From assembly GCA_014384565.1 (NCBI GenBank), contig JACNFO010000039.1, forward strand, positions 623 to 64,622: a stretch of 64,000 nucleotides of DNA, given 5' to 3'. Each line of letters begins with the position of its first letter. Position 1 is the first letter of the stretch. Positions 27,801 through 43,668 of the stretch are shown here, one piece after another. The notes under the pieces were generated by a model that saw nothing but the letters and a program-made list of their open reading frames with translations, searched no databases and was not told where the DNA came from. The DNA is from Candidatus Pseudothioglobus aerophilus. Its GTDB lineage: Bacteria > Pseudomonadota > Gammaproteobacteria > PS1 > Pseudothioglobaceae. The position numbers and the translations under genes are program-made.

Positions 27801-30101
27801 CTACATTCTTACTCGAGTTTTTTCAGGATCATAAAATGGAAAGCGGACCACCTTTGCAGATAAACGCTTATGGTGTCCATCGAGCTTTCCTACTTCAACT
27901 TCATTATCAATCTCTGACGCTGAAACTGAAATTCGACATAATGCAATGTTCTTTTTAAGTATCGGCGAACGTGTTGCACTTGTAATAATTCCAACTTGTT
28001 GTTTTCCAATATACACCCCATCACCATGGAGCGCAACTTCATTAGAATCTAATTCTAACCCAACTAGAACTCTTTGTGGAGAATTCTTCCGAAGAATTAA
28101 TGATTCCTTACCAGAAAAATCTTCCTCTTTTGTTTTCAATGGAACCGTAAACGCAATGCCTGCTTCAAATGGGTCCGTTTGATCACAGAACTCATAACCG
28201 GCAAAAATTAAACCTGCCTCAATTCTTAGCATATCAAGAGCATTCAATCCTAATGGACATATACCAAACTCTTCTCCAGCCTCTGCAATAGCATCCCAAA
28301 CGGCTTCACAATCATTAGGGTGTGCAAACACTTCATAACCTAGCTCACCAGAATATCCAGTCCTAGAAACCATCACAGGTATTCCAAACTCGCCGCCAAT
28401 TCTACCAATGGTAAAACGGAACCACTTAAGATCCTCAAGACTCGTTTGGAGTTTTGGCGTCCAGATAATTTTCTCTAAAGTTTCGCGGCTCTTTGGACCC
28501 TGAACAGCAACGTTGTGAAGCTGGTCTGTTGAAGACTTAACACGGACATCAAACCCTTTTTCATTTGCAATTTTTCGAAGCAGTTTCCCGCCATCATCCG
28601 AGCCACCAATCCATCTAAAATTATTTTCATCAAGACGGAAAAGCGTTCCATCATCAACCATACATCCATTGTCATAGCACATTGCAGAATAGACAACCTG
28701 GCCAATCGCAAGCTTTCTAACATCTTTGGTAATAGCATATTGCATTAATGCTTCAGCATCTTGACCGTAAACTTCAAACTTTCTAAGAGGTGCAAGGTCA
28801 ATCATTGCTACCCCTTCACGGCACTGCCAATATTCTTTAATTGCACCTAAATTATCGTATTCAAGTGGAAGCCAATAGCCATTATAGTTATCAAAGTTTT
28901 TAGTTAGCTTAGAGGTATTTTTATGAAAACCAGTTTCTTTAGTCATAGTTGGTATTGATTGTGGATCAGGCCTAAAAGCCGTAGCCGATGAGAAATTATT
29001 GGATTTATTATAAATTCTAACGTGAATGTCTGTTGGATTCCAGCCATTAGAAGAGGTCGTATCATCTGGACAAGCTGATGAAACGCATACCAGGTCATCA
29101 ACAGCTCTAAATAATACATAGTCACCAGGTCTAGACCAAGAAACATCTGAGCTTAATGAATGACACTCTTCAATAGCAGTATTAAAAAAGAGATTAACAG
29201 CTGCCCAATTTTGTCTTGGAGTAACCCCGTATTTAGAAAGAGATTTATTGAAATTATCAGTACAACTAATATGTCCAGGGAATCCCCTATCATCATAATA
29301 TTTGGCGTTGCATGCAAGGCCAAAGGTGTCATGTCTACACACAGTGTCTTGTATTACTTCTACTAGTGGCACTGAATTTTGGTTGTAGAACTTATCGTGA
29401 GTCCCTGGCGCTGGGTAACTTGCCAGCATCTGCGACCTTGTCACTGTTGGATCAAGGCAAAGCTCTAGATTATTTTTTAAATCTTCTTCTAAAAATGCTT
29501 GAAAATCTGAGCATTGCTGGCCCTCAACATCAATAATTTGAATATATTCACCGGCCTTTACTTTATAGGCAACCGCAGAGCTATTATTTATCCGAATCTC
29601 TTTAGATGTTTTGGCAAGGGGCTCAGGAAGTCTCTCAGAGGGGTTTGATGGATTTGAGCGAGATACATTAATTAAAATCTCTGTAGGAGAATTTTGTTTA
29701 TCTACTATCATTGGCCCACCTTTTGCATCAAATACACATAAGGCATCATTTTTAATATTAAAAGATTGACGAGAATCAGCAGGGTTTGATGCTGAAAAAA
29801 GCTCCGTACCATTTAGTTCTTTTGAATCAATTTGGTTGTGTTTTATAATTGCCTTAAACATATCCGAACAATCATCTACACTTATTTCAGATGCATTACT
29901 TTTAGGTTTTGAATTCCAGCTTAAAGTTGATAATACTGATAATTTTTCAGCATTAAAAGCAAGAACACTGCACTGTTGATCTCCCTCTACATCGACTATC
30001 TCTACTGAATCGCCACTCTTTAAGTCAATTGAAATTGCCTCACCACCAAGAAGTTGGTAGGTTTCACAATCGCCATCATATTTAATATTAGAAACTCTCA
30101 T
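27801..30101 (-). CDS. tdm: Trimethylamine N-oxide demethylase (DUF1989 + GcvT-like domain)
   Basis: QQCSDF, RHDTFGLAC..YY...GFPGHISC.DNF, WSRPGDYVL, SSACPDD metal motifs; C-terminal aminomethyltransferase domain (DDGT, RTGYSGELGYE). Confidence 0.87.
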   Translation of the reverse strand: MRVSNIKYDGDCETYQLLGGEAISIDLKSGDSVEIVDVEGDQQCSVLAFNAEKLSVLSTLSWNSKPKSNASEISVDDCSDMFKAIIKHNQIDSKELNGTELFSASNPADSRQSFNIKNDALCVFDAKGGPMIVDKQNSPTEILINVSRSNPSNPSERLPEPLAKTSKEIRINNSSAVAYKVKAGEYIQIIDVEGQQCSDFQAFLEEDLKNNLELCLDPTVTRSQMLASYPAPGTHDKFYNQNSVPLVEVIQDTVCRHDTFGLACNAKYYDDRGFPGHISCTDNFNKSLSKYGVTPRQNWAAVNLFFNTAIEECHSLSSDVSWSRPGDYVLFRAVDDLVCVSSACPDDTTSSNGWNPTDIHVRIYNKSNNFSSATAFRPDPQSIPTMTKETGFHKNTSKLTKNFDNYNGYWLPLEYDNLGAIKEYWQCREGVAMIDLAPLRKFEVYGQDAEALMQYAITKDVRKLAIGQVVYSAMCYDNGCMVDDGTLFRLDENNFRWIGGSDDGGKLLRKIANEKGFDVRVKSSTDQLHNVAVQGPKSRETLEKIIWTPKLQTSLEDLKWFRFTIGRIGGEFGIPVMVSRTGYSGELGYEVFAHPNDCEAVWDAIAEAGEEFGICPLGLNALDMLRIEAGLIFAGYEFCDQTDPFEAGIAFTVPLKTKEEDFSGKESLILRKNSPQRVLVGLELDSNEVALHGDGVYIGKQQVGIITSATRSPILKKNIALCRISVSASEIDNEVEVGKLDGHHKRLSAKVVRFPFYDPEKTRVRM

Positions 30102-30129
30102 TTAGTAGAATAATTTAACAGATAATTTG

Positions 30130-30157
30130 AGTATACATAGAATAATTTATAGGTCAA
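30130..30157 (-). promoter_or_regulatory. Sigma70-type promoter for tdm
   Basis: Minus strand TTGACC-N16-TATACT(CAAA). Confidence 0.55.
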
Positions 30158-30204
30158 TTTGAAAATATTCATGCTTCGATGAAATGAATTGCAAGCTAAA
30201 AAAA

Positions 30205-30246
30205 TAGTTTATACGGCACTCCAGGGGGTGGAATGCCGAAAAACTA
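30205..30246 (-). terminator. GC-rich hairpin downstream of the GS-like/mgsABC/orf operon
   Basis: Minus strand CGGCATTCCA-CCCCC-TGGAGTGCCG with AT-rich flanking arms, then TATTTTTT. Confidence 0.5.
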
Positions 30247-30305
30247 AGGAGTTAAGATTCAGAGCCTTGCTCTAAACTAACCCCTTTAGAAACCACTTAC
30301 AGTAG

Positions 30306-30692
30306 TTAGAATTTACGGTAAGCGTTATTAAGGTCAACCATTGGGTGGTTTTCTGACATTTGAAACTTAACTAATAATTCACGAGCAATCATATCTCGCT
30401 CTTGCTGGTTATTTGGAAGTTTTATATTGTCCGGAATAGTGACCCAACCATTAATATTTCTATCAAAAACAGCAGCTTGATCGCCCTCATAACCCATATG
30501 AATATCTTCTAACCAGTTAAGATCTTTCCAGCCCATTTTTTCAATATATTTTTGTAAAAAAGGCGTTATAAACTTAAGATCAGGAACAAGGTTTACATCA
30601 TATCTATAACCGATATGTTGTCCAATCATTTGCTCGCGATCGGTATCTAAGCCATCAGCACCAACTACAAATGTTTCTTCATTTTTACTCAT
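30306..30692 (-). CDS. Hypothetical 128-aa protein, last gene of the GS-like/mgs operon
   Basis: GGAG RBS; starts 14 nt after the mgsC stop; protein-like composition; no motif I recognise. Confidence 0.75.
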   Translation of the reverse strand: MSKNEETFVVGADGLDTDREQMIGQHIGYRYDVNLVPDLKFITPFLQKYIEKMGWKDLNWLEDIHMGYEGDQAAVFDRNINGWVTIPDNIKLPNNQQERDMIARELLVKFQMSENHPMVDLNNAYRKF

Positions 30693-30706
30693 AATAACTC
30701 CTTATC

Positions 30707-32041
30707 TTAAAAACGTGTCATATCAGGACGACCAACCGTGTGCTGTGAACCTGCAATAGGAACTTGTGCACAAGCTGAAGCCTCCATAGTAAGAGCAGCT
30801 AGATCTTCTGGCTCTAATGAGTGTATATTTGTCTTACCACAGGCACGAGCCATCATTTGAGTCTCGATTGCTAGTGTATGTAAGAAGTTGTATACACGCT
30901 CTGATGCTTCATCCGGATCCAGACGCTTTCTAAGTTCAGGATCTTGAGTTGCAACACCAACCGGGCAGCGCCCAGTATGACAGTGGTAACATTCACCGGC
31001 TTTAACGCCCATTTCAGCTTCATAATTAGCTTCAGGAATATCTCTATTACAGTTAAGCGCCATAAGCGATGAGTGGCCAATCGCAACTGCGTCAGCACCA
31101 AGTGCAACGGCTTTAGCTACGTCACCACCATTTCGAATACCACCCGCATAAACTAAAGAAATTCTGCCGCTCATCCCAACATCATCAATCGCCCTTCGAG
31201 CTTGACGAATTGCTGCAATTCCTGGTACTCCAGTTTCTTCTGTCGCAATATGTGGTCCAGCAGCAGTGCCGCCTTCCATTCCATCAATATAAATACTATC
31301 ACAACCAGTCTTAGCGGCCATACGTACATCATCGTATACACGCGCTGCACCAAGTTTAAGCTGAATTGGAATCTGACCATCTGTCGCTTCACGAATCTCT
31401 TCAATCTTTAGCGCCAAGTCATCTGGTCCAAGCCAGTCTGGATGTCTCGCAGGAGATCGCTGATCAATACCGGCAGGTAAAGAACGCATTTCAGCAACCT
31501 GGTCTGTAACTTTTTGGCCCATTAGGTGTCCACCTAAACCAACCTTACAGCCTTGACCAATAAAAAATTCAACACTATCCGCTAAACGTAAATGTTGTGG
31601 GTTAAAGCCATAACGCGACTGAATACACTGGTAGAACCACTTACTTGAGTAGCGTCTCTCATCTGGAATCATTCCGCCCTCACCTGAACAGGTGGCAGTT
31701 CCGGCCATCGTAGCACCGCGAGCTAGAGCTGTTTTAGCCTCATAACTCAATGCACCAAAGCTCATTCCAGTAATGTAAATTGGAATGTCCAGCTCTAATG
31801 GTCTTGGAGCCTCTGGCCCAATAATTGTCTTAGTTAAGCATTTTTCTCTATAACCCTCAATAACAAAACGAGTTAACGTTCCAGGCATGAAAGTCAAGTC
31901 ATCCCATGTTGGAATTTTTTTAAATAGAGAGAAACCTCTCATTCTGTATCTACCCAAATCAGACTTGATGTGAATATCATCCATCACCGCTTTAGGGAAG
32001 ATAAAACTTTTTCCTAGTCTATGGTTTTCTGAATCACTCAT
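30707..32041 (-). CDS. mgsC: N-methylglutamate synthase FMN/Fe-S subunit (MgsC/GlxD-like)
   Basis: GMSFGALS, GEGGM, IGQG.K.G.GG.L.GQKV, RHPDW.GPDDL, GGIRNGGDVAKA, CYHCHTGRCPVG Fe-S motif. Confidence 0.8.
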   Translation of the reverse strand: MSDSENHRLGKSFIFPKAVMDDIHIKSDLGRYRMRGFSLFKKIPTWDDLTFMPGTLTRFVIEGYREKCLTKTIIGPEAPRPLELDIPIYITGMSFGALSYEAKTALARGATMAGTATCSGEGGMIPDERRYSSKWFYQCIQSRYGFNPQHLRLADSVEFFIGQGCKVGLGGHLMGQKVTDQVAEMRSLPAGIDQRSPARHPDWLGPDDLALKIEEIREATDGQIPIQLKLGAARVYDDVRMAAKTGCDSIYIDGMEGGTAAGPHIATEETGVPGIAAIRQARRAIDDVGMSGRISLVYAGGIRNGGDVAKAVALGADAVAIGHSSLMALNCNRDIPEANYEAEMGVKAGECYHCHTGRCPVGVATQDPELRKRLDPDEASERVYNFLHTLAIETQMMARACGKTNIHSLEPEDLAALTMEASACAQVPIAGSQHTVGRPDMTRF

Positions 32042-32076
32042 AATATTTCCTTTTGTTTAATTTGTTAAAAATGCTA

Positions 32077-32919
32077 TTAAAGAATTAGTTTCTTTTCATT
32101 AGGCTCTAAGTTAGCGTAGTTCCATAACATTTTTCCAGAAACATGCTTTTGCATTTTCTCAACGCCTCTAGGAGTCTTCATACCATAAAGGGCCAATTTC
32201 TCTGTTAGGTAACGAACATCAAGCTCTGTCATATCAGCCTGCACGCAGTCAACACCAAGCTCTTCAACCTCACCGCCAACATAAATAGTGCCGTCATACA
32301 TAGAGTCACCTAAGTTCATTCCAGCATCACCTAAAACAATCATACGACCACGCTGCATCATGAATCCAGAAAATGCACCTGTCTTACCGCCGACAATAAT
32401 TGTGCCGCCCTTCTGATCAATACCAGTACGAGCGCCAACACTGCCTTTACAGACAAGATCACCGCCACGAATAGCAGCGCCAAAAGTAGAACCAGCATTT
32501 TTGTCAATGACAACAGTACCCGCCATCATGTTTTCTGCACACGACCAACCGACACGACCTTTAATATGGACATTAGGTCCATCAATTAAGCCGCAACCAA
32601 AGTAACCTAAACTATCTGAGAAAGTTAAGTTAAGTCTGTTTAAGATGCCAACGCCAACTCCATGCCTAGACATAGGGTTATCAACAGTAATATCACCAAT
32701 ACCTTTTTCCATTAGCTCTCTGATTTCACGATTAATCTCTCTTGGCGTCATGTCAAGTGCGTCAATCGTTGCACTCTTAGAAGTGTCAACATCAAATGAG
32801 TGGAAATATGTTAAATTTTCACTTTCGTCAATAGAGAAGAATTTTTTCTGCGTTCTTCCTTTTAACTGCTCGTCGTGAAGTCCCATCTCCTGGGACGTTT
32901 CCTTCCTTAGTTCTGCCAT
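32077..32919 (-). CDS. mgsB: N-methylglutamate synthase GXGXG subunit (MgsB/GlxC-like), with about 50 aa N-terminal extension
   Basis: GltB-C/FwdC beta-helix repeats (AENMMAG, GARTGI..KGG, GDAG..LGDSMY). Confidence 0.8.
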   Translation of the reverse strand: MAELRKETSQEMGLHDEQLKGRTQKKFFSIDESENLTYFHSFDVDTSKSATIDALDMTPREINREIRELMEKGIGDITVDNPMSRHGVGVGILNRLNLTFSDSLGYFGCGLIDGPNVHIKGRVGWSCAENMMAGTVVIDKNAGSTFGAAIRGGDLVCKGSVGARTGIDQKGGTIIVGGKTGAFSGFMMQRGRMIVLGDAGMNLGDSMYDGTIYVGGEVEELGVDCVQADMTELDVRYLTEKLALYGMKTPRGVEKMQKHVSGKMLWNYANLEPNEKKLIL

Positions 32920-33845
32920 ACTTTTACCTCTCCGTGATAGGGGTCAAATGTCTCAATACGATGGTCAAATAAAGTTCTAATTGCAACCTCTTCAGAAGCT
33001 AGTGCAATCATATCTTCACCTTCGTATACAACCATTGGTTTTGCAGCCATAACATCCTTGGCCATACCAAGTTGATCTTTAGTTGCAACCAAATATGTGA
33101 AAACGCCATCAAGGTAATCTATTGAACCTTTCATAGCAGTTTCTAAATCGTCACCTTGGCTCATTCTATCGGCAAGATAAACGGCAATAAGTTCTGAGTC
33201 GCAGTTCGATGAAAAACGGTGGCCAGAGCGCTCAAGTGATCGTCTATTTGTCCAATAGTTTGTAAGCTGCCCGTTATGAACTACTGCAACGTCACTAAAG
33301 GGATATGCCCAGTAAGGGTGTGCCGAGCGAATATCTACGTCAGACTCGGTCGCCATCCTGGTATGTCCAATTCCGTGAGTGCCATTAAAGTCATTTAAGC
33401 CGTACTGATCAGAAACTACCGATGCATCTCCTAAGTCTTTAACTAACTCAAGTGAGTTACCGATAGATAAAATTTCAACGCCTTCAACATCTTCAACAAA
33501 GTCGGCAACTTTTTTCATGTCACCTGAAAACTCTACCTCATAACGATGGGCATACTCAGTTGGGCTCTCTTTCTTTACAACCTTAACACCTAACTCAGTA
33601 AGTCTTGAGTTGACTGTCTCCAAGCGATCTTTGATAGTCGCATGGATATCATAGCTTCCTTCTAGATCAGCAGCCTCAGCAACCTTAAATCTTAATATTT
33701 GATTTCCATTGTCTTTGCCGTACATTGCATATCCAGTTGAGTCTGGACCTCTATGCTTTAAAGCCTGTAGCATTGAAGTCATCTGCTGACCAATGTTTAC
33801 GCCTTTTCCAGCTTTTTTATGAATAATTCCTGCTATTCCGCACAT
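32907..33845 (-). CDS. mgsA: N-methylglutamate synthase class II amidotransferase subunit (MgsA/GlxB-like)
   Basis: N-terminal MCGIAG nucleophile, HRGPDS, GHTRMAT, HNGQLTN, DSE. Confidence 0.8.
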   Translation of the reverse strand: MCGIAGIIHKKAGKGVNIGQQMTSMLQALKHRGPDSTGYAMYGKDNGNQILRFKVAEAADLEGSYDIHATIKDRLETVNSRLTELGVKVVKKESPTEYAHRYEVEFSGDMKKVADFVEDVEGVEILSIGNSLELVKDLGDASVVSDQYGLNDFNGTHGIGHTRMATESDVDIRSAHPYWAYPFSDVAVVHNGQLTNYWTNRRSLERSGHRFSSNCDSELIAVYLADRMSQGDDLETAMKGSIDYLDGVFTYLVATKDQLGMAKDVMAAKPMVVYEGEDMIALASEEVAIRTLFDHRIETFDPYHGEVKVWQN

Positions 33846-33866
33846 AAAATAATCTCCCTTTTCCCG

Positions 33867-33892
33867 AAAAATTGCCCACCGTTAAGTGGGCA
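33867..33892 (-). terminator. Intra-operon hairpin between the GS-like gene and mgsA
   Basis: TGCCCAC-N6-GTGGGCA perfect stem, followed on the minus strand by ATTTTT. Confidence 0.5.
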
Positions 33893-33919
33893 CTCTAAAA
33901 ACCTTAAAAAAACTTAGCC

Positions 33920-35395
33920 CTATGGCAAGCAATCTATGTAAGTCTCTAAATCCCAATCTGTAACTGTGGCATTAAATTTTTCCCATTCATCCGTCTTATA
34001 ATGATGAAAAACTTTGTACATCTCATTTGGCATCGATGATTTAATTACGTCATCATTTTCTAGCTCATTTAATGCCTCACCTAAGGACATAGGAAGCTTC
34101 TTGACTTGCTTTCCTGCCTCCATCGCTGCATAGATATTACGCTCTTCAGGCTCACCGGCATCAAGGTTATTATCAATACCGTCACCCATCGCCTTTAACA
34201 GCGCTGATCCCATTAAGTAAGGGTTAACCATTGAGTCCACAGAGCGGTATTCAAAACGGCCTGGCGCAGAAACGCGAAGTGCACAAGTACGGTTTTGATA
34301 ACCCCAGTCTGCAAAAATTGGCGCCCAAAAGCCAGTATCCCAAAGACGGCGATACGAGTTCACAGTAGAAGAGCCGATTGAAGTTAGTGCGGGTAGATGC
34401 TTAATAACGCCGCCAATTGACTGAAGTCCAATTGGACCAGGCATCTTTTCATCGATTGAAGGGTCCGGCATAAATGTGTTCTTGCCGCCCTCTTTATACA
34501 TAAAGTTACCAGGCATTCCTGGAAGCTCTCCATCACCAGCAATTTCTGGATGGAATACGTCTTTGCCGCCTTCCCATAATGACATATTATGGTGACAACC
34601 TGATGCAGATACTCCCATAAAAGGCTTACTCATAAAGCATGCAATTAAACCAAACTCACGAGCAACTTGCGCACAAATTTGTCGATAAGTCGTCAATCGG
34701 TCTGCATTTCTTAATACATCGTCAAACTGAGTATTAAGCTCTAATTGACCCGGGGCATCTTCGTGGTCACCTTGAATAATATCAAGACCCATCTGCTCTG
34801 AATACTCTATAACTTTCATAAAGACAGGACGCAACTCTTCAAACTGGTCAATGTGATAGCAGTTTGGCTTTGTTACTCCGCCGTTTGGCTGACCATCTTC
34901 ACCGCGCTTTAGCCACATCATTTCTGGCTCCGTGCCGCATCTCATATCTAACCCATACTGGTCTTGGAATTCTTTGTGTTGTCTGTATAAGTTGCCACGA
35001 CAATCTGACGTTAACGCTTCGCCTGGATTTTCACGTTCTTCACGGTTCCTGTAAAGTCTACAAAAAACGCGCGCTACTCTCTTATCCCATGGAAGCTGAC
35101 AAAAAGTCTCAGGATCTGGAATACCTACAAGCTCTGAAGATTCAGGGCCGTAACCAATATAGTCACCGTGACGGTCTACAAATAAGTTGGCTGTTGAGCC
35201 GTATACTAGTTGAAATCCTTTTTCAGCTAATCTCTCCCAGTGGCGGGCAGGAATACCTTTACCTACAATGCGCCCTGTAACTGAAACAAATTGATAATAT
35301 ACATATGTAACGCCCAATGCTTCGATTTTAGCCTTGACTTCTTTTACAAGTTTGTCGCGTCCGGGCTCGTTAACGTGTTGTTCTAAATCTGTCAT
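33920..35395 (-). CDS. gmaS: Glutamine synthetase-family protein, probable gamma-glutamyl-(methyl)amide synthetase (GmaS-like, divergent)
   Basis: GTEPE, HEDAPGQLE, FMSKPF, GCHHNMS, NSYRRL, NRTCALR, FEYR, NPYL. Function inferred from position before mgsABC. Confidence 0.7.
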   Translation of the reverse strand: MTDLEQHVNEPGRDKLVKEVKAKIEALGVTYVYYQFVSVTGRIVGKGIPARHWERLAEKGFQLVYGSTANLFVDRHGDYIGYGPESSELVGIPDPETFCQLPWDKRVARVFCRLYRNREERENPGEALTSDCRGNLYRQHKEFQDQYGLDMRCGTEPEMMWLKRGEDGQPNGGVTKPNCYHIDQFEELRPVFMKVIEYSEQMGLDIIQGDHEDAPGQLELNTQFDDVLRNADRLTTYRQICAQVAREFGLIACFMSKPFMGVSASGCHHNMSLWEGGKDVFHPEIAGDGELPGMPGNFMYKEGGKNTFMPDPSIDEKMPGPIGLQSIGGVIKHLPALTSIGSSTVNSYRRLWDTGFWAPIFADWGYQNRTCALRVSAPGRFEYRSVDSMVNPYLMGSALLKAMGDGIDNNLDAGEPEERNIYAAMEAGKQVKKLPMSLGEALNELENDDVIKSSMPNEMYKVFHHYKTDEWEKFNATVTDWDLETYIDCLP

Positions 35396-41780: not shown

Positions 41781-41812
41781 AAAAAGGGCGGTATTTTTAT
41801 ACCGCCCTTTTT
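41781..41812. terminator. Bidirectional intrinsic terminator
   Basis: AAAAAGGGCGGTAT-TTTT-ATACCGCCCTTTTT perfect 14-bp inverted repeat between convergent sucB and amt operon. Confidence 0.85.
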
Positions 41813-41835: not shown

Positions 41836-42012
41836 CTATTTGTAGTGATCTTGCTCGTCATTGTTTCCTTTGACTAAAATCGCTACCAACATAACCGAGG
41901 CAATGACCGAATACCAGCCAGGCATTGAACTGCCCGCACCAATATACATACCCATATCAATCCAGCCATCGGCATTATAGAGTTCTGCAAAAGATTCAGC
42001 AAAATATCCCAT
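41836..42012 (-). CDS. Unannotated 58-aa small membrane protein downstream of amt
   Basis: MGYFAESFAELYNADGWIDMGMYIGAGSSMPGWYSVIASVMLVAILVKGNNDEQDHYK; AAGGAGG RBS; 11 nt after the amt stop; double stop TAG TAA. Confidence 0.7.
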   Translation of the reverse strand: MGYFAESFAELYNADGWIDMGMYIGAGSSMPGWYSVIASVMLVAILVKGNNDEQDHYK

Positions 42013-42023
42013 ATTATTCCTCC

Positions 42024-43433
42024 TTATTTAGAATCAGATGCAGAGCTAACCATTGACTCAGGATAAGCCTGAGCAGGAACCTTGACTGCGTCAAGACCTT
42101 TGATTTGAACGTCATCTGGGATACGTAGCATTCCAGCTTTGTGGACCAACCAAGATACAATGTACCCTGGAACGAAGCCAAGCAAGAACATTACTACAGC
42201 GCCAACAATTTGGCCATATAAGCTTATTGCAACTGTACCTTCTGGAGCGAATGCACCAAGCCCTGGAACGCCAGAACCGAATACACCAAGAACAACAACA
42301 CCAAACAGGCCAATTGTTCCGTGGACCGTAACAGCGCCAACAGCATCATCGATACCTAAACCTTCTACCCAGTCTGCACATGGTTTTAAAATCATGCCCG
42401 CAACAAGTGAAATAATGATTACGTGTGAGCCAAAGTAAACATCAAGTCCAGAGGCGACTGAGATAATACCTGCTAGACAGCCAGACATCATCCAGAAAGG
42501 GTCTTTAGTAAATACCCATGCACCGATAATACCACCAGCAGCAGCCAAAGTTACGTTAAACGCAAGCGCTGAAAGTGTTATTGGCGTTCCATAAATGGTT
42601 GTACCTTGATCCGCATACCAACTCCAACCTTCACCAGGCAGAATGATACATGCCATTAGGAAGCCGAAGAAACCAACAATAATTAGCATCAAGCCAGTTA
42701 CTGTAAGCGGTAAGTTGTGGCCCGGAATTTTATTCGCAGAACCGTCAGCGTTGAATTTTCCCACACGAGGACCTAGATTAACTAGAATACCTAGAGCGAA
42801 GAATCCAGCAACCGCGTGAACCAATCCAGCCGCACCAAAGTCATGAAAACCGAACTCTGTTACTAACCAACCATCGGCATGCCAGCCCCAAGCGGCAGCT
42901 ACAACCCAGGCAAAAGAGCCGAGGACAATCGCACAGATTACCCAACCTACGGTTTGTATTCTCTCGATTAGCGCGCCGGAAGCAATAGACGCAGTCGTTG
43001 CAGCAAACAGAGCGAAAGCTCCCCAGAATACACCTGACGCACGGTCAGCCATATTTGGACCCATGTACTGGGCTGAATCGCCCCATGGTAATGCAATCGC
43101 ATTGGCATACGCCAAACCTGAAATTTCCATGTACCCGGCACCTGCTGCCAGGGACGTAACTGGAAACGTTGGCAAGGCCCAATAGAACCACCAACCAAAC
43201 AGATAAAACGTTACGATTGTAAACGCAAACGCGAGTAAGTTTTTAATTCCTGACGACAGTACATTTGCCACACGAGTTTGGCCCATCTCATAGAGAAGGA
43301 AACCAGCATGAATAAGAACCATCAAAGGAATTGTTATGTAATAGTACGCTTCAGCAAACATGGTGTTTGTGACCTGAGCCGCACTTTTGACAGCAGCTAT
43401 CTCTGCCGTTAAAGCTAAGATTTGATCTTCCAA
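42024..43433 (-). CDS. amt: Amt/Mep-family ammonium or methylammonium channel
   Basis: HAGFLLYEMG, ASGALIER, HDFGAAGLVH, GPRVGKF, GIDDAVGAVTVHG (twin His). TTG start after AAGGAGA. Confidence 0.9.
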   Translation of the reverse strand: MEDQILALTAEIAAVKSAAQVTNTMFAEAYYYITIPLMVLIHAGFLLYEMGQTRVANVLSSGIKNLLAFAFTIVTFYLFGWWFYWALPTFPVTSLAAGAGYMEISGLAYANAIALPWGDSAQYMGPNMADRASGVFWGAFALFAATTASIASGALIERIQTVGWVICAIVLGSFAWVVAAAWGWHADGWLVTEFGFHDFGAAGLVHAVAGFFALGILVNLGPRVGKFNADGSANKIPGHNLPLTVTGLMLIIVGFFGFLMACIILPGEGWSWYADQGTTIYGTPITLSALAFNVTLAAAGGIIGAWVFTKDPFWMMSGCLAGIISVASGLDVYFGSHVIIISLVAGMILKPCADWVEGLGIDDAVGAVTVHGTIGLFGVVVLGVFGSGVPGLGAFAPEGTVAISLYGQIVGAVVMFLLGFVPGYIVSWLVHKAGMLRIPDDVQIKGLDAVKVPAQAYPESMVSSASDSK

Positions 43434-43668
43434 AACAATTTCTCCTTTTTTTGTTGTAAGTAAACTCTCTCCTTTTTACTTATAAGAACATTTCGCTCTT
43501 ACATTTTTGAGTATAAACAATTTAAAACAACAAATCTACAAAAATTATCTCTAAATTGGGACAATTGCAGAAAGATGTTAAGTTACTTATTAAATAACAA
43601 TTACTTAGTGCGGGTAAATAGTTTTTTGAGATTGACTAGTTATGTGTCAAGATGAACTACAACTAGTC

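What the first reader, a model, noticed from the sequence alone, without database searches (positions are those of the whole stretch)
42024..43433. Amt channel with altered pore residues: candidate dedicated methylamine channel
The twin His, the W148-equivalent and the D160-equivalent are kept (WGW...HDFGAAGLVH; VTVHG). However, E. coli AmtB GWFGFNAGS (W212/F215/N216/S219) reads GFFGFLMAC here, and the FQxxFA motif reads AFALFA. S219 is part of the periplasmic ammonium site, and changes at this position are known to alter methylammonium handling in AmtB. No glnK is adjacent, and the gene shares the promoter element of the amine island.
Basis: partly seen in the sequence, partly recalled or inferred. 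Interest (0 to 1): 0.58.

Follow-up and report, generated by a model that had tools for sequence, protein, structure and literature searches.

The report
Methylamine-linked Amt channel with micro-partner
This gene encodes a second, unusual ammonium-channel relative whose outer substrate site and pore are rebuilt, which always comes with a tiny membrane partner and travels with methylated-amine breakdown genes in many marine bacteria, so it is the best candidate for their unidentified methylamine (possibly dimethylamine) channel, though no transport has been measured.

Summary
ORF 42024-43433 (-) is a 469-aa Amt-family protein that keeps the twin His, Phe gate, W148 and D160. It replaces F103A, Q104F, W212F, N216L, A217M, S219C and T273A (E. 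coli numbering).

- **Conservation:** these replacements are invariant in 81 orthologues of 55-100% identity. They define a long-branched clade separate from canonical AmtB.
- **Second Amt:** the genome (Ca. Pseudothioglobus) also has an ordinary amtB with glnK elsewhere.
- **Gene neighbourhood:** methylated-amine genes (mgsABC/gmaS, tdm, tmoXWV, mgd) lie within 10 kb in 55 of 73 informative loci.
- **Co-occurrence:** among 122 Thioglobaceae genomes it tracks the GS-like amine ligase almost perfectly. In 151 Rhodobacterales genomes, 30 of 32 carriers have MgsC.
- **Partner:** a ~55-aa single-pass membrane protein gene (41836-42012) follows the channel gene in every locus with enough downstream sequence. 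A complex model supports binding.
- **Promoter:** the "shared promoter element" is only a -10 box outside this genome.

Substrate and direction are inferred, not shown. Monomethylammonium uptake is most likely; dimethylamine or ammonium remain possible.

Papers already draw this gene as "amt/amtB" in amine clusters. The rebuilt pore and the partner appear undescribed. This scan found the same module earlier in other genomes (e1-5478714, e1-3111198).

The parts
42024..43433 (-). Variant Amt-family channel gene (469 aa, TTG start)
   Evidence: PF00909 at 181 bits. Below the cut-offs of TIGR00836 and the AmtB equivalog. AF2 model pLDDT 83.7, Foldseek TM 0.79-0.87 to AmtB, Amt-1 and the sensor Amts. 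Separate long-branched clade, SH-aLRT 100.
42648..42674 (-). Codons 254-262, GFFGFLMAC (TM6): W212F, N216L, A217M, G218A, S219C; F215 kept
   Evidence: Alignment to E. coli AmtB. W212F, N216L, A217M and S219C are 81/81 among close orthologues.
43002..43019 (-). Codons 139-144, AFALFA (TM3): F103A, Q104F; F107 kept
   Evidence: 81/81 conserved.
43029..43175 (-). Enlarged periplasmic TM2-TM3 loop (about residues 87-135) with conserved PW and MGPN..D motifs
   Evidence: Median 49 residues against 29 in canonical Amts. Residues 116-130 form part of the predicted interface with the small partner.
42579..42647 (-). Enlarged periplasmic TM6-TM7 loop (residues 263-285) directly after C262, with invariant PGE.WSW and IYGTP motifs
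   Evidence: 37 residues against 20 in canonical Amts, with motifs about 100% conserved. Low AF2 confidence at 267-284.
41836..42012 (-). 58-aa single-pass membrane protein gene, translationally coupled to amt (AAGGAGG overlaps the amt stop; 11-nt gap)
   Evidence: Sequence. A homologous ~55-aa ORF follows amt in all 78 genome loci that extend past the stop. 405 database relatives, all 'hypothetical', with no Pfam or NCBIfam match. Single copy in this genome. Complex model ipSAE 0.82 against best control 0.00.
41781..41812 (.). Bidirectional intrinsic terminator closing amt-small ORF (and sucB from the other side)
   Evidence: 14-bp stem with T runs on both strands.
43506..43515 (-). TATACT -10-like box (TATACTCAAA in this genome), about 80 nt upstream of the start
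   Evidence: 3 copies in the window against 0.22 expected. Only TATACT is kept in relatives. No full sigma-70 match was found by the scan.
43482..43502 (-). 8-bp hairpin in the amt 5' leader
   Evidence: RNAalifold on 9 Pseudothioglobus leaders gave 8 pairs, 3 with compensatory changes. No Rfam match. Function unknown.
27801..35395 (-). Context: GS-like ligase, mgsA/B/C-like genes, 128-aa unknown and tdm. This is the methylated-amine island with which the channel co-occurs; it lies 6.6 kb away, separated by a regulator, bhmT-like gene and sucAB.
   Evidence: Pfam and NCBIfam. The same gene order is followed directly by amt in a Granulosicoccaceae locus, L073.

Best explanation
The gene encodes the pore subunit of a specialised Amt-family channel for methylated ammonium. 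The most likely role is uptake of monomethylammonium (CH3NH3+) that feeds the glutamate-linked methylamine pathway encoded nearby.

Shown:
- It is a true Amt fold that keeps the parts needed for cation recruitment and deprotonation: W148, D160, the F107/F215 gate and the twin His.
- The residues that fit NH4+ at the outer site and line the pore are replaced by a fixed set: F103A, Q104F, A162G, G163A, L208I, W212F, N216L, A217M, S219C, V270I and T273A.
- Two periplasmic loops beside that site are enlarged and conserved.
- A ~55-aa single-pass protein is always encoded just downstream.
- The module travels with methylated-amine genes, while a canonical amtB-glnK pair elsewhere in the genome can serve ammonium.

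Inferred:
- The remodelled, less polar site accepts a methyl-bearing cation in preference to NH4+.
- Transport follows the usual Amt route: the cation binds outside, the proton and the neutral amine pass separately, and the net result is electrogenic uptake that allows scavenging of nanomolar amine.
- The small protein is a fixed subunit. Its helix packs on TM2 and the start of TM4, its N-terminus touches the clade-specific loop, and its basic tail touches the C-terminal region that GlnK-regulated Amts use for control.
For: - **Family and fold:**
- **Signature residues:** invariant in 81 orthologues, and 24 clade-specific positions concentrated in TM3, TM5, TM6 and TM8. Loop enlargements.
- **Separate clade:** on a branch of length 1.0, SH-aLRT 100.
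- **Second, canonical amt with glnK in the same genome:**
- **Synteny:** 55 of 73 informative loci have mgs/gmaS, tdm, tmoXWV or mgd genes within 10 kb, and 34 have them directly adjacent. Several independent architectures occur, including divergent from mgsABC-gmaS and tdm-amt-small.
- **Distant clade members (38-43% identity):** one sits next to a GS-like/mgsABC/soxDA cluster and another after dimethylformamidase genes.
- **Co-occurrence, Thioglobaceae:** both genes 35, channel only 4, ligase only 5, neither 78. All 9 discordant genomes are under 90% complete, and all 17 carriers of either gene among the 73 good-quality genomes have both.
- **Co-occurrence, Rhodobacterales sample:** both 30, Amt only 2, MgsC only 25, neither 94.
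- **Genomes whose channel locus lacks amine genes:** 9 of 10 carry MgsC elsewhere.
- **Partner:** conserved ORF family. Complex model score 0.82 against best control 0.00. That mark was reached by 58 of 80 solved complexes and 2 of 110 mismatched pairs. The runs share at least 85% of contacts, and partner pLDDT is at least 77.
- **AmtB mutagenesis:** changes at the S1 site (F107A, W148A/L, S219A) raise methylammonium transport (PMC3355798).
Against: - No transport, binding or expression data exist for any member in the literature I could search. Papers label it only 'amt, unspecified ammonium transporter' or 'amtB, ammonia transporter'.
- The replacements do not simply enlarge the site. Some add bulk (Q104F, A217M, N216L). 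I had no model coordinates, so no pore radius or docking was computed.
- 25 of 55 MgsC-bearing Rhodobacterales genomes lack the channel, so it is not required for the pathway.
- In this window the gene is 6.6 kb from the amine island, with sucAB between them. The shared 10-mer is not conserved in relatives.
- In a P. aeruginosa plasmid the Amt next to mgsC is of the canonical type, and the variant sits beside dmm-like genes instead.
- In the Rhodobacterales sample the clade tracks the 'second-type' MgsC (17 of 21 genomes) more closely than the ordinary type alone (13 of 34). This leaves dimethylamine open as the substrate.
- Related genomes are not independent, so the co-occurrence counts overstate the support.
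Confidence: 0.55

Rival explanations
1. The channel conducts dimethylamine (or both DMA and MMA). It would either import DMA or release or recapture DMA made inside the cell by Tdm. These bacteria lack the known DMA monooxygenase.
For: - Operon-like tdm-amt-small arrangements exist (L070, L086, L073), and convergent amt/tdm-tmoVWX arrangements also occur.
- A 38%-identical clade member follows dimethylformamidase genes, whose product is DMA.
- In P. aeruginosa RW109 the variant sits beside dmm-like genes, while a canonical Amt sits next to mgsC.
- Clade members occur in 17 of 21 genomes with the 'second-type' MgsC, against 13 of 34 with only the ordinary type.
- This genome has only the second-type module.
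- F103A, W212F and T273A remove bulk at the outer site and in the pore.
Against: - The commonest architecture places the gene divergent from the ordinary mgsABC-gmaS (MMA) operon.
- No Amt is known to pass a secondary amine (own knowledge).
- Several replacements add bulk.
- The role of the second-type module in DMA metabolism is itself only a hypothesis from earlier scan notes.
Confidence: 0.2
2. It is an ammonium/ammonia channel tied to amine catabolism. It would be a GlnK-independent valve that releases or recaptures the NH4+ produced when methylated amines are burnt for energy, or simply a second ammonium importer.
For: - All catalytic hallmarks of ammonium-conducting Amts are kept.
- Published figures label it as an ammonia/ammonium transporter.
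- Methylamine-degrading Rhodobacteraceae are reported to release ammonium (title and abstract of PMC7574528).
- Loss of the S219 hydroxyl and of F103 could lower outer-site affinity, which an exporter would tolerate.
Against: - The genome already has a canonical amtB-glnK pair.
- The outer entrance is not degraded but elaborated. It has two enlarged, highly conserved periplasmic loops and a partner that contacts them. That fits recruitment from outside.
- The signature residues are under strict conservation.
- The distribution follows amine genes, not nitrogen-assimilation genes.
Confidence: 0.18
3. It is a non-conducting amine sensor (transceptor), like the sensor Amts. It would signal through the small partner to switch on the neighbouring amine genes.
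For: The closest solved structures by sequence and fold are the sensor Amts Ks-Amt5 (6eu6) and Sd-Amt1 (8qj3, 8qpf). The gene is frequently divergent from the mgs operon, with regulators nearby.
Against: - There is no fused signalling domain. The 469 aa match only PF00909.
- Fused sensor Amts form a different clade in the tree.
- The partner has only a cytoplasmic tail of about 10-15 residues.
- The twin His and the Phe gate are intact.
Confidence: 0.05

Closest known systems
E. coli AmtB (with GlnK), the archetypal bacterial ammonium channel
   Same: Same Pfam family and 11-helix fold. W148, D160, F107/F215 and H168/H318 are kept. AmtB also carries methylammonium as an analogue.
   Different: - Only about 23-25% identity, and it scores far below the AmtB equivalog cut-off (43.8 against 657).
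- F103A, Q104F, A162G, G163A, W212F, N216L, A217M, S219C and T273A.
- Two enlarged periplasmic loops.
- No glnK. A single-pass micro-protein gene follows instead.
- Linked to amine catabolism rather than nitrogen control.
Sensor Amts: Ks-Amt5 (PDB 6eu6) and Sd-Amt1 (8qj3/8qj4/8qpf)
   Same: Best sequence and fold matches among solved structures (1e-23; TM 0.85-0.87).
   Different: Those carry C-terminal signalling domains and form a separate clade with canonical residues. This protein has no extra domain.
'amt/amtB' drawn in methylated-amine gene clusters of Roseobacters and SAR11 (Lidbury 2015, 2017; Zecher 2020), and the 'amt' of the gmas-mgsABC-amt operon of Pseudomonas sp. C5pp, called a methylamine transporter (Kamini 2018, cited in PMC8292978)
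   Same: An Amt gene placed inside or beside the TMA/TMAO/MMA catabolic genes. The Roseobacter loci retrieved here carry orthologues of 60-73% identity.
   Different: - Those papers give a label only. They report no residue analysis, no partner and no assay.
- In the one annotated Pseudomonas island I could read (RW109 plasmid), the Amt next to mgsC is the canonical type and the variant is a separate gene.
- The C5pp sequence itself was not checked.
sP36 of Methanosarcina mazei, a 61-aa protein that binds AmtB1 and mediates GlnK1 inhibition (PMC10714827)
   Same: A small protein acting on an Amt channel.
   Different: sP36 is a soluble cytoplasmic protein that moves to the membrane on nitrogen upshift and works with GlnK1. 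The partner here is an integral single-pass membrane protein, it matches no Pfam or NCBIfam model, it is always encoded next to the channel, and it occurs where no glnK is linked.

Membership tests
Amt/Mep/Rh superfamily (PF00909) | Profile match above the curated cut-off over the whole domain | tested here: met
   181.1 bits against a cut-off of 23.2; residues 34-457 on profile positions 6-399 of 399.
Amt/Mep/Rh superfamily (PF00909) | Eleven-helix Amt fold | tested here: met
   AF2 pLDDT 83.7, pTM 0.86. Foldseek TM (target) 0.79-0.87 to AmtB, Amt-1 and the sensor Amts.
Amt/Mep/Rh superfamily (PF00909) | Twin histidines, Phe gate, D160 and W148 | tested here: met
   H206, H371, F143, F258, D198 and W184; each 81/81 in orthologues.
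Amt/Mep/Rh superfamily (PF00909) | Homotrimer | not testable with these tools
   Three copies exceed the size limit of the complex tool, and no coordinates were available.
Canonical bacterial Amt/AmtB (TIGR00836; NF007947) | Score above the NCBIfam trusted cut-off | tested here: not met
   TIGR00836 187.1 against 343.3; NF007947 43.8 against 657; TIGR03644 marine subtype 157.7 against 514.
Canonical bacterial Amt/AmtB (TIGR00836; NF007947) | Outer NH4+ site residues F103 and S219 and pore residues W212, N216 and T273 | tested here: not met
   A, C, F, L and A respectively. These are invariant in the clade, whereas 42 canonical sequences keep F, S, W, N and T at 88-100%.
Canonical bacterial Amt/AmtB (TIGR00836; NF007947) | Linkage to glnK (P-II) | tested here: not met
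   The only P-II gene of the genome lies upstream of the other amt, on contig C48.
Sensor Amts (Ks-Amt5 / Sd-Amt1 type) | Amt module fused to a cytoplasmic signalling domain | tested here: not met
   469 aa with only PF00909. The fused forms cluster elsewhere in the tree.
Methylated-amine-linked Amt clade with micro-protein partner (defined in this scan; no published name found) | Signature A103/F104/G162/A163/F212/L216/C219/A273 | tested here: met
   The window protein carries all of them.
Methylated-amine-linked Amt clade with micro-protein partner (defined in this scan; no published name found) | A ~55-aa single-pass protein gene immediately downstream | tested here: met
   41836-42012, with an 11-nt gap and a coupled RBS. 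Homologous to the ORFs in 78 other loci.
Methylated-amine-linked Amt clade with micro-protein partner (defined in this scan; no published name found) | Genome carries glutamate-linked methylamine genes | tested here: met
   GS-like ligase, mgsABC-like genes, tdm, tmoXWV-like and mgd/sox genes are in the same window. For co-occurrence.
Methylated-amine-linked Amt clade with micro-protein partner (defined in this scan; no published name found) | Transport of methylammonium in preference to ammonium | not testable with these tools
   Needs uptake assays or electrophysiology.

The most novel reading that the evidence does not exclude
A heteromeric Amt channel: a pore subunit plus an obligatory single-pass micro-subunit that replaces GlnK control and helps to build a new periplasmic recruitment site. 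It would have evolved to conduct secondary as well as primary methylated amines. On this reading it is the missing dimethylamine/monomethylamine transporter of abundant marine heterotrophs, spread by horizontal transfer from Alphaproteobacteria into the SUP05-clade heterotroph Pseudothioglobus.
Probability: 0.25. Interest if true: 0.8.

Novelty: new variant of a known kind. Interest (0 to 1): 0.6.

Why it matters
Methylated amines are a significant nitrogen and energy source in the sea and are precursors of climate-active aerosols. The catabolic enzymes and the TMAO importer are known, but no monomethylamine or dimethylamine transporter has been identified in marine bacteria.

This clade is a concrete, testable candidate. 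It is abundant in ocean metagenomes and is present in Roseobacters, Granulosicoccus, Rhodospirillales and Pseudothioglobus.

For the Amt field it would supply two things:
- A natural experiment in substrate selectivity: a fixed set of outer-site and pore replacements on an otherwise intact deprotonation machinery.
- To my knowledge, the first integral-membrane accessory subunit of an Amt protein.

Tried and rejected
- **Shared regulatory element:** the 10-mer is enriched in this window, but only the -10 hexamer is conserved upstream of amt in 7 of 8 relatives. I rejected it as evidence of co-regulation.
- **Promoter scan:** the sigma-70 scan found no full promoter upstream of amt.
- **Rfam:** the amt region gave only sub-threshold terminator-like hits.
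- **Family assignment of the small partner:** Pfam and NCBIfam gave nothing.
- **Sensor-Amt reading:** rejected, because there is no signalling domain and the protein falls in a separate clade.
- **Loci without amine genes:** contexts in Roseovarius-type loci were uninformative (FAD-linked oxidase, hydrolase, NAD-binding proteins), although those genomes carry MgsC elsewhere.
- **Pore geometry:** no model coordinates are exposed, so no pore radius, docking or trimer-interface check of the partner's position could be done.
- **Javelle 2008 paper:** the primary paper is not held, so I used a review instead.
- **SAR11 and Ruegeria pomeroyi:** I did not check whether their cluster Amts belong to this clade.
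Full report
**What is there**

The ORF at 42024-43433 (minus strand) encodes 469 aa. It starts at a TTG preceded by AAGGAGA, and the same start is kept in relatives. It is a full-length Amt-family protein (PF00909, 181 bits). It falls well below the curated cut-offs of the bacterial Amt subfamily (TIGR00836, 187 against 343), the marine subtype (TIGR03644, 158 against 514) and the AmtB equivalog (44 against 657).

By sequence, its nearest solved relatives are the sensor Amts 6eu6 and 8qj3 (1e-23). E. coli AmtB scores only about 1e-7. An AlphaFold model built on 37 sequences is confident (pLDDT 83.7, pTM 0.86). It superposes on AmtB, Amt-1 and the sensor Amts with target-normalised TM-scores of 0.79-0.87.

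Names on close database relatives place the organism in Candidatus Pseudothioglobus, the heterotrophic branch of the SUP05 group. The genome holds 1.47 Mb in 62 contigs and is 91% complete.

I aligned the protein with E. coli AmtB, read from NC_000913.3, and used mature numbering.

- Kept: W148, D160, H168, H318, F107 and F215.
- Replaced: F103A, Q104F, A162G, G163A, W212F, N216L, A217M, S219C and T273A.

Each of these replacements is invariant in 81 orthologues that share only 55-100% identity. Against 42 canonical Amts there are 24 positions at which both groups are conserved but differ. They cluster in TM3 (103, 104), the D160 motif of TM5 (162-164), TM6 (208, 212, 216, 219), TM8 (270, 273) and the C-terminal region (398, 399).

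From the published AmtB structures (own knowledge; S1 residues confirmed in PMC3355798), these are the outer ammonium site and the pore lining.

Two periplasmic loops that flank the outer site are also enlarged. TM2-TM3 has a median of 49 residues against 29. TM6-TM7 has 37 against 20 and carries invariant PGE.WSW and IYGTP motifs.

In a maximum-likelihood tree, the close orthologues and a set of 31-44% identical relatives form one side of a branch of length 1.0 (SH-aLRT 100). This branch is separate from canonical and sensor-fused Amts. The Pseudothioglobus copies nest inside the alphaproteobacterial radiation, which points to horizontal acquisition.

**A paralogue, not the housekeeping channel**

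The genome has a second Amt on contig C48. It carries the canonical FQ..F, DFAGS, GWFGFNGGS and VHG motifs, and glnK lies directly upstream. No P-II gene is near the variant.

**Association with methylated-amine catabolism**

The window itself carries tdm, a TmoXWV-like importer, a GS-like ligase, mgsABC-like genes and mgd/sox genes. The channel gene lies 6.6 kb from the ligase. A regulator, a homocysteine methyltransferase gene and sucAB lie between them.

The decisive evidence comes from elsewhere. A scan of one genome per species found 542 relatives, of which I kept the best 80.

- Of 73 loci with enough flank, 55 have mgsABC/gmaS, tdm, tmoXV or mgd genes within 10 kb, and 34 have them directly adjacent.
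- Several independent architectures recur:
  - mgsABC-gmaS divergent from amt;
  - amt convergent with tdm-tmoVWX;
  - tdm-amt in one direction;
  - in a Granulosicoccaceae locus, the window's own gene order (flavoprotein, GS-like, mgsABC, 128-aa unknown, tdm) followed directly by amt.
- A 43%-identical relative sits beside a GS-like/mgsABC/soxDA cluster.
- A 38%-identical relative follows dimethylformamidase genes.

**Co-occurrence**

| Sample | Both | Channel only | Amine gene only | Neither |
|---|---|---|---|---|
| Thioglobaceae, 122 genomes (GS-like ligase) | 35 | 4 | 5 | 78 |
| Rhodobacterales family sample, 151 genomes (MgsC-like) | 30 | 2 | 25 | 94 |

In Thioglobaceae the channel is present in 39 genomes and the ligase in 40. 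All nine discordant genomes are 53-87% complete. Among the 73 genomes at least 90% complete and at most 5% contaminated, the same 17 carry both genes and none carries only one.

The pair appears in at least three separate places in that family: the Pseudothioglobus genus and a neighbouring genus, one of four genomes of another genus, and one genome that carries a different subclade of the channel.

In the Rhodobacterales sample, 32 genomes carry a clade member and 55 carry an MgsC-like gene.

Ten genomes have a channel locus that lacks amine genes. Nine of them still have MgsC elsewhere.

Relatives are not independent, so I give counts rather than statistics.

**The partner**

Eleven nucleotides after the amt stop, with AAGGAGG overlapping it, a 58-codon ORF (41836-42012) begins. 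A strong bidirectional terminator follows it.

A homologous ORF of about 55 codons follows the channel gene in all 78 genome loci that extend beyond the stop. It also follows the channel gene in annotated Ponticoccus and P. aeruginosa plasmids. The two distant metagenome relatives L006 and L007 carry a similar 71-aa ORF. The 43%-identical relatives L004 and L005 instead have a 38-aa single-pass ORF that lacks the N-terminal segment.

The protein has three parts:
- an acidic, aromatic N-terminal segment with a near-invariant Trp and a G-x-[YF]-x-G motif;
- one transmembrane helix;
- a G..xE..xY basic tail.

By the positive-inside rule, this places the N-terminus in the periplasm.

The family has 405 database members, all annotated 'hypothetical', and matches no Pfam or NCBIfam model. 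This genome has one copy.

A complex prediction with my own alignments supports binding:
- Score 0.82 (runs 0.79, 0.85, 0.82), against a best control of 0.00.
- That mark was reached by 58 of 80 solved complexes and 2 of 110 mismatched pairs.
- The runs agree in at least 85% of contacts, and partner pLDDT is at least 77.

The predicted interface joins the partner's helix to TM2 (residues 71-78) and to residues 160-166. It joins the N-terminal part to the clade-specific loop (116-130), and the tail to the channel's C-terminal region (435-451). That region includes a clade-specific position, 451. This is a model, not a measurement. I could not check whether the site is compatible with the trimer.

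**Promoter claim**

TATACTCAAA occurs three times in the window, upstream of tdm, the GS-like gene and amt. The expectation is 0.22. In related Pseudothioglobus loci only TATACT survives upstream of amt. It is therefore best read as a -10 box rather than a shared operator.

**How it most likely works**

The cation-recruiting and proton-relay parts (W148, D160, twin His, Phe gate) are intact. The two-lane mechanism described for AmtB (PMC7447429) should therefore still apply.

What has changed is the shape and polarity of the outer site and the hydrophobic lane, together with a more elaborate periplasmic entrance. AmtB mutants at the same site (F107A, W148A/L, S219A) carry methylammonium 2-10 times faster (PMC3355798).

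Taking this with the genomic linkage and the presence of a separate amtB-glnK pair, I judge uptake of monomethylammonium the most likely function (about 0.55).

Dimethylamine is a serious alternative (about 0.2), for these reasons:
- the tdm-linked operons;
- the dimethylformamidase context;
- the Pseudomonas island, in which a canonical Amt sits by mgsC and the variant sits by dmm-like genes;
- the tighter association with the 'second-type' MgsC (17 of 21 genomes against 13 of 34). That is the only type in this genome.

An ammonium valve (about 0.18) and a sensor (about 0.05) are less likely.

**What is known**

Published figures already place an 'amt/amtB' gene in these clusters, labelled as an ammonia or 'unspecified ammonium' transporter (PMC5520151, PMC4744692, PMC7574528). 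A Pseudomonas 'gmas-mgsABC-amt' operon has been described with the Amt called a methylamine transporter (PMC8292978).

I found no paper that reports the residue signature, the enlarged loops, the small partner or any assay. The only small-protein partner of an Amt that I found is the soluble sP36 of Methanosarcina mazei, which works through GlnK1 (PMC10714827).

After finishing my own analysis I saw that this scan had reached the same reading on other genomes (e1-5478714; e1-3111198 for the distant subclade). This window therefore adds a gammaproteobacterial member and quantitative co-occurrence data rather than a first discovery.

**Verdict**

The feature is real. It is a new variant of a known kind. 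Interest is 0.6.

Noticed in passing
window 43482-43502 (-): An 8-bp hairpin in the amt 5' leader, between the -10 box and a first GGAGAGAG purine block. It is kept in nine Pseudothioglobus loci, with compensatory changes at three pairs. It has no Rfam match. It could be a regulatory or stabilising leader element.
   Followed up: partly
Rhodobacterales genomes G122, G132, G134, G227: Some Roseobacter genomes carry two members of the clade, one of the 62-88% type and one of the 44-48% type. In G227 and G134 both lie within a few kb of each other and of mgsC. This suggests sub-specialisation, for example for different amines.
   Followed up: no
L090 (P. aeruginosa RW109 plasmid 1, LT969519.1 431-450 kb): A megaplasmid island holds the variant amt plus a 59-aa ORF. 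It also holds betaine aldehyde dehydrogenase, a GATase, sugE and a gcvT/reductase set that resembles dmmDABC. A second, canonical-type amtB lies next to a glutamate-synthase-like (mgsC) gene.
   Followed up: partly
window 30707-35395 and own genome: This genome has only the 'second-type' GS-like/MgsABC-like module, with MgsC 84-88% identical to copies in Roseobacters. No copy of the ordinary, ~50%-identical type was found in the 91%-complete assembly. Many Roseobacters have both types.
   Followed up: partly
Tree; loci L009-L016 against L017-L088: The Pseudothioglobus (Gammaproteobacteria) channel genes nest within alphaproteobacterial ones at 70-73% identity. This indicates horizontal transfer of the amt-small module, as for the neighbouring amine genes.
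   Followed up: partly
L004 5601-6411 and L005 5811-6492: In the 43%-identical relative, the channel gene is followed by a train of three or four very small ORFs (38, 110, 45 and 55 aa). A GAF/PucR-type regulator and the GS-like/mgsABC genes come next. This is a different micro-protein set from the one in the window.
   Followed up: no
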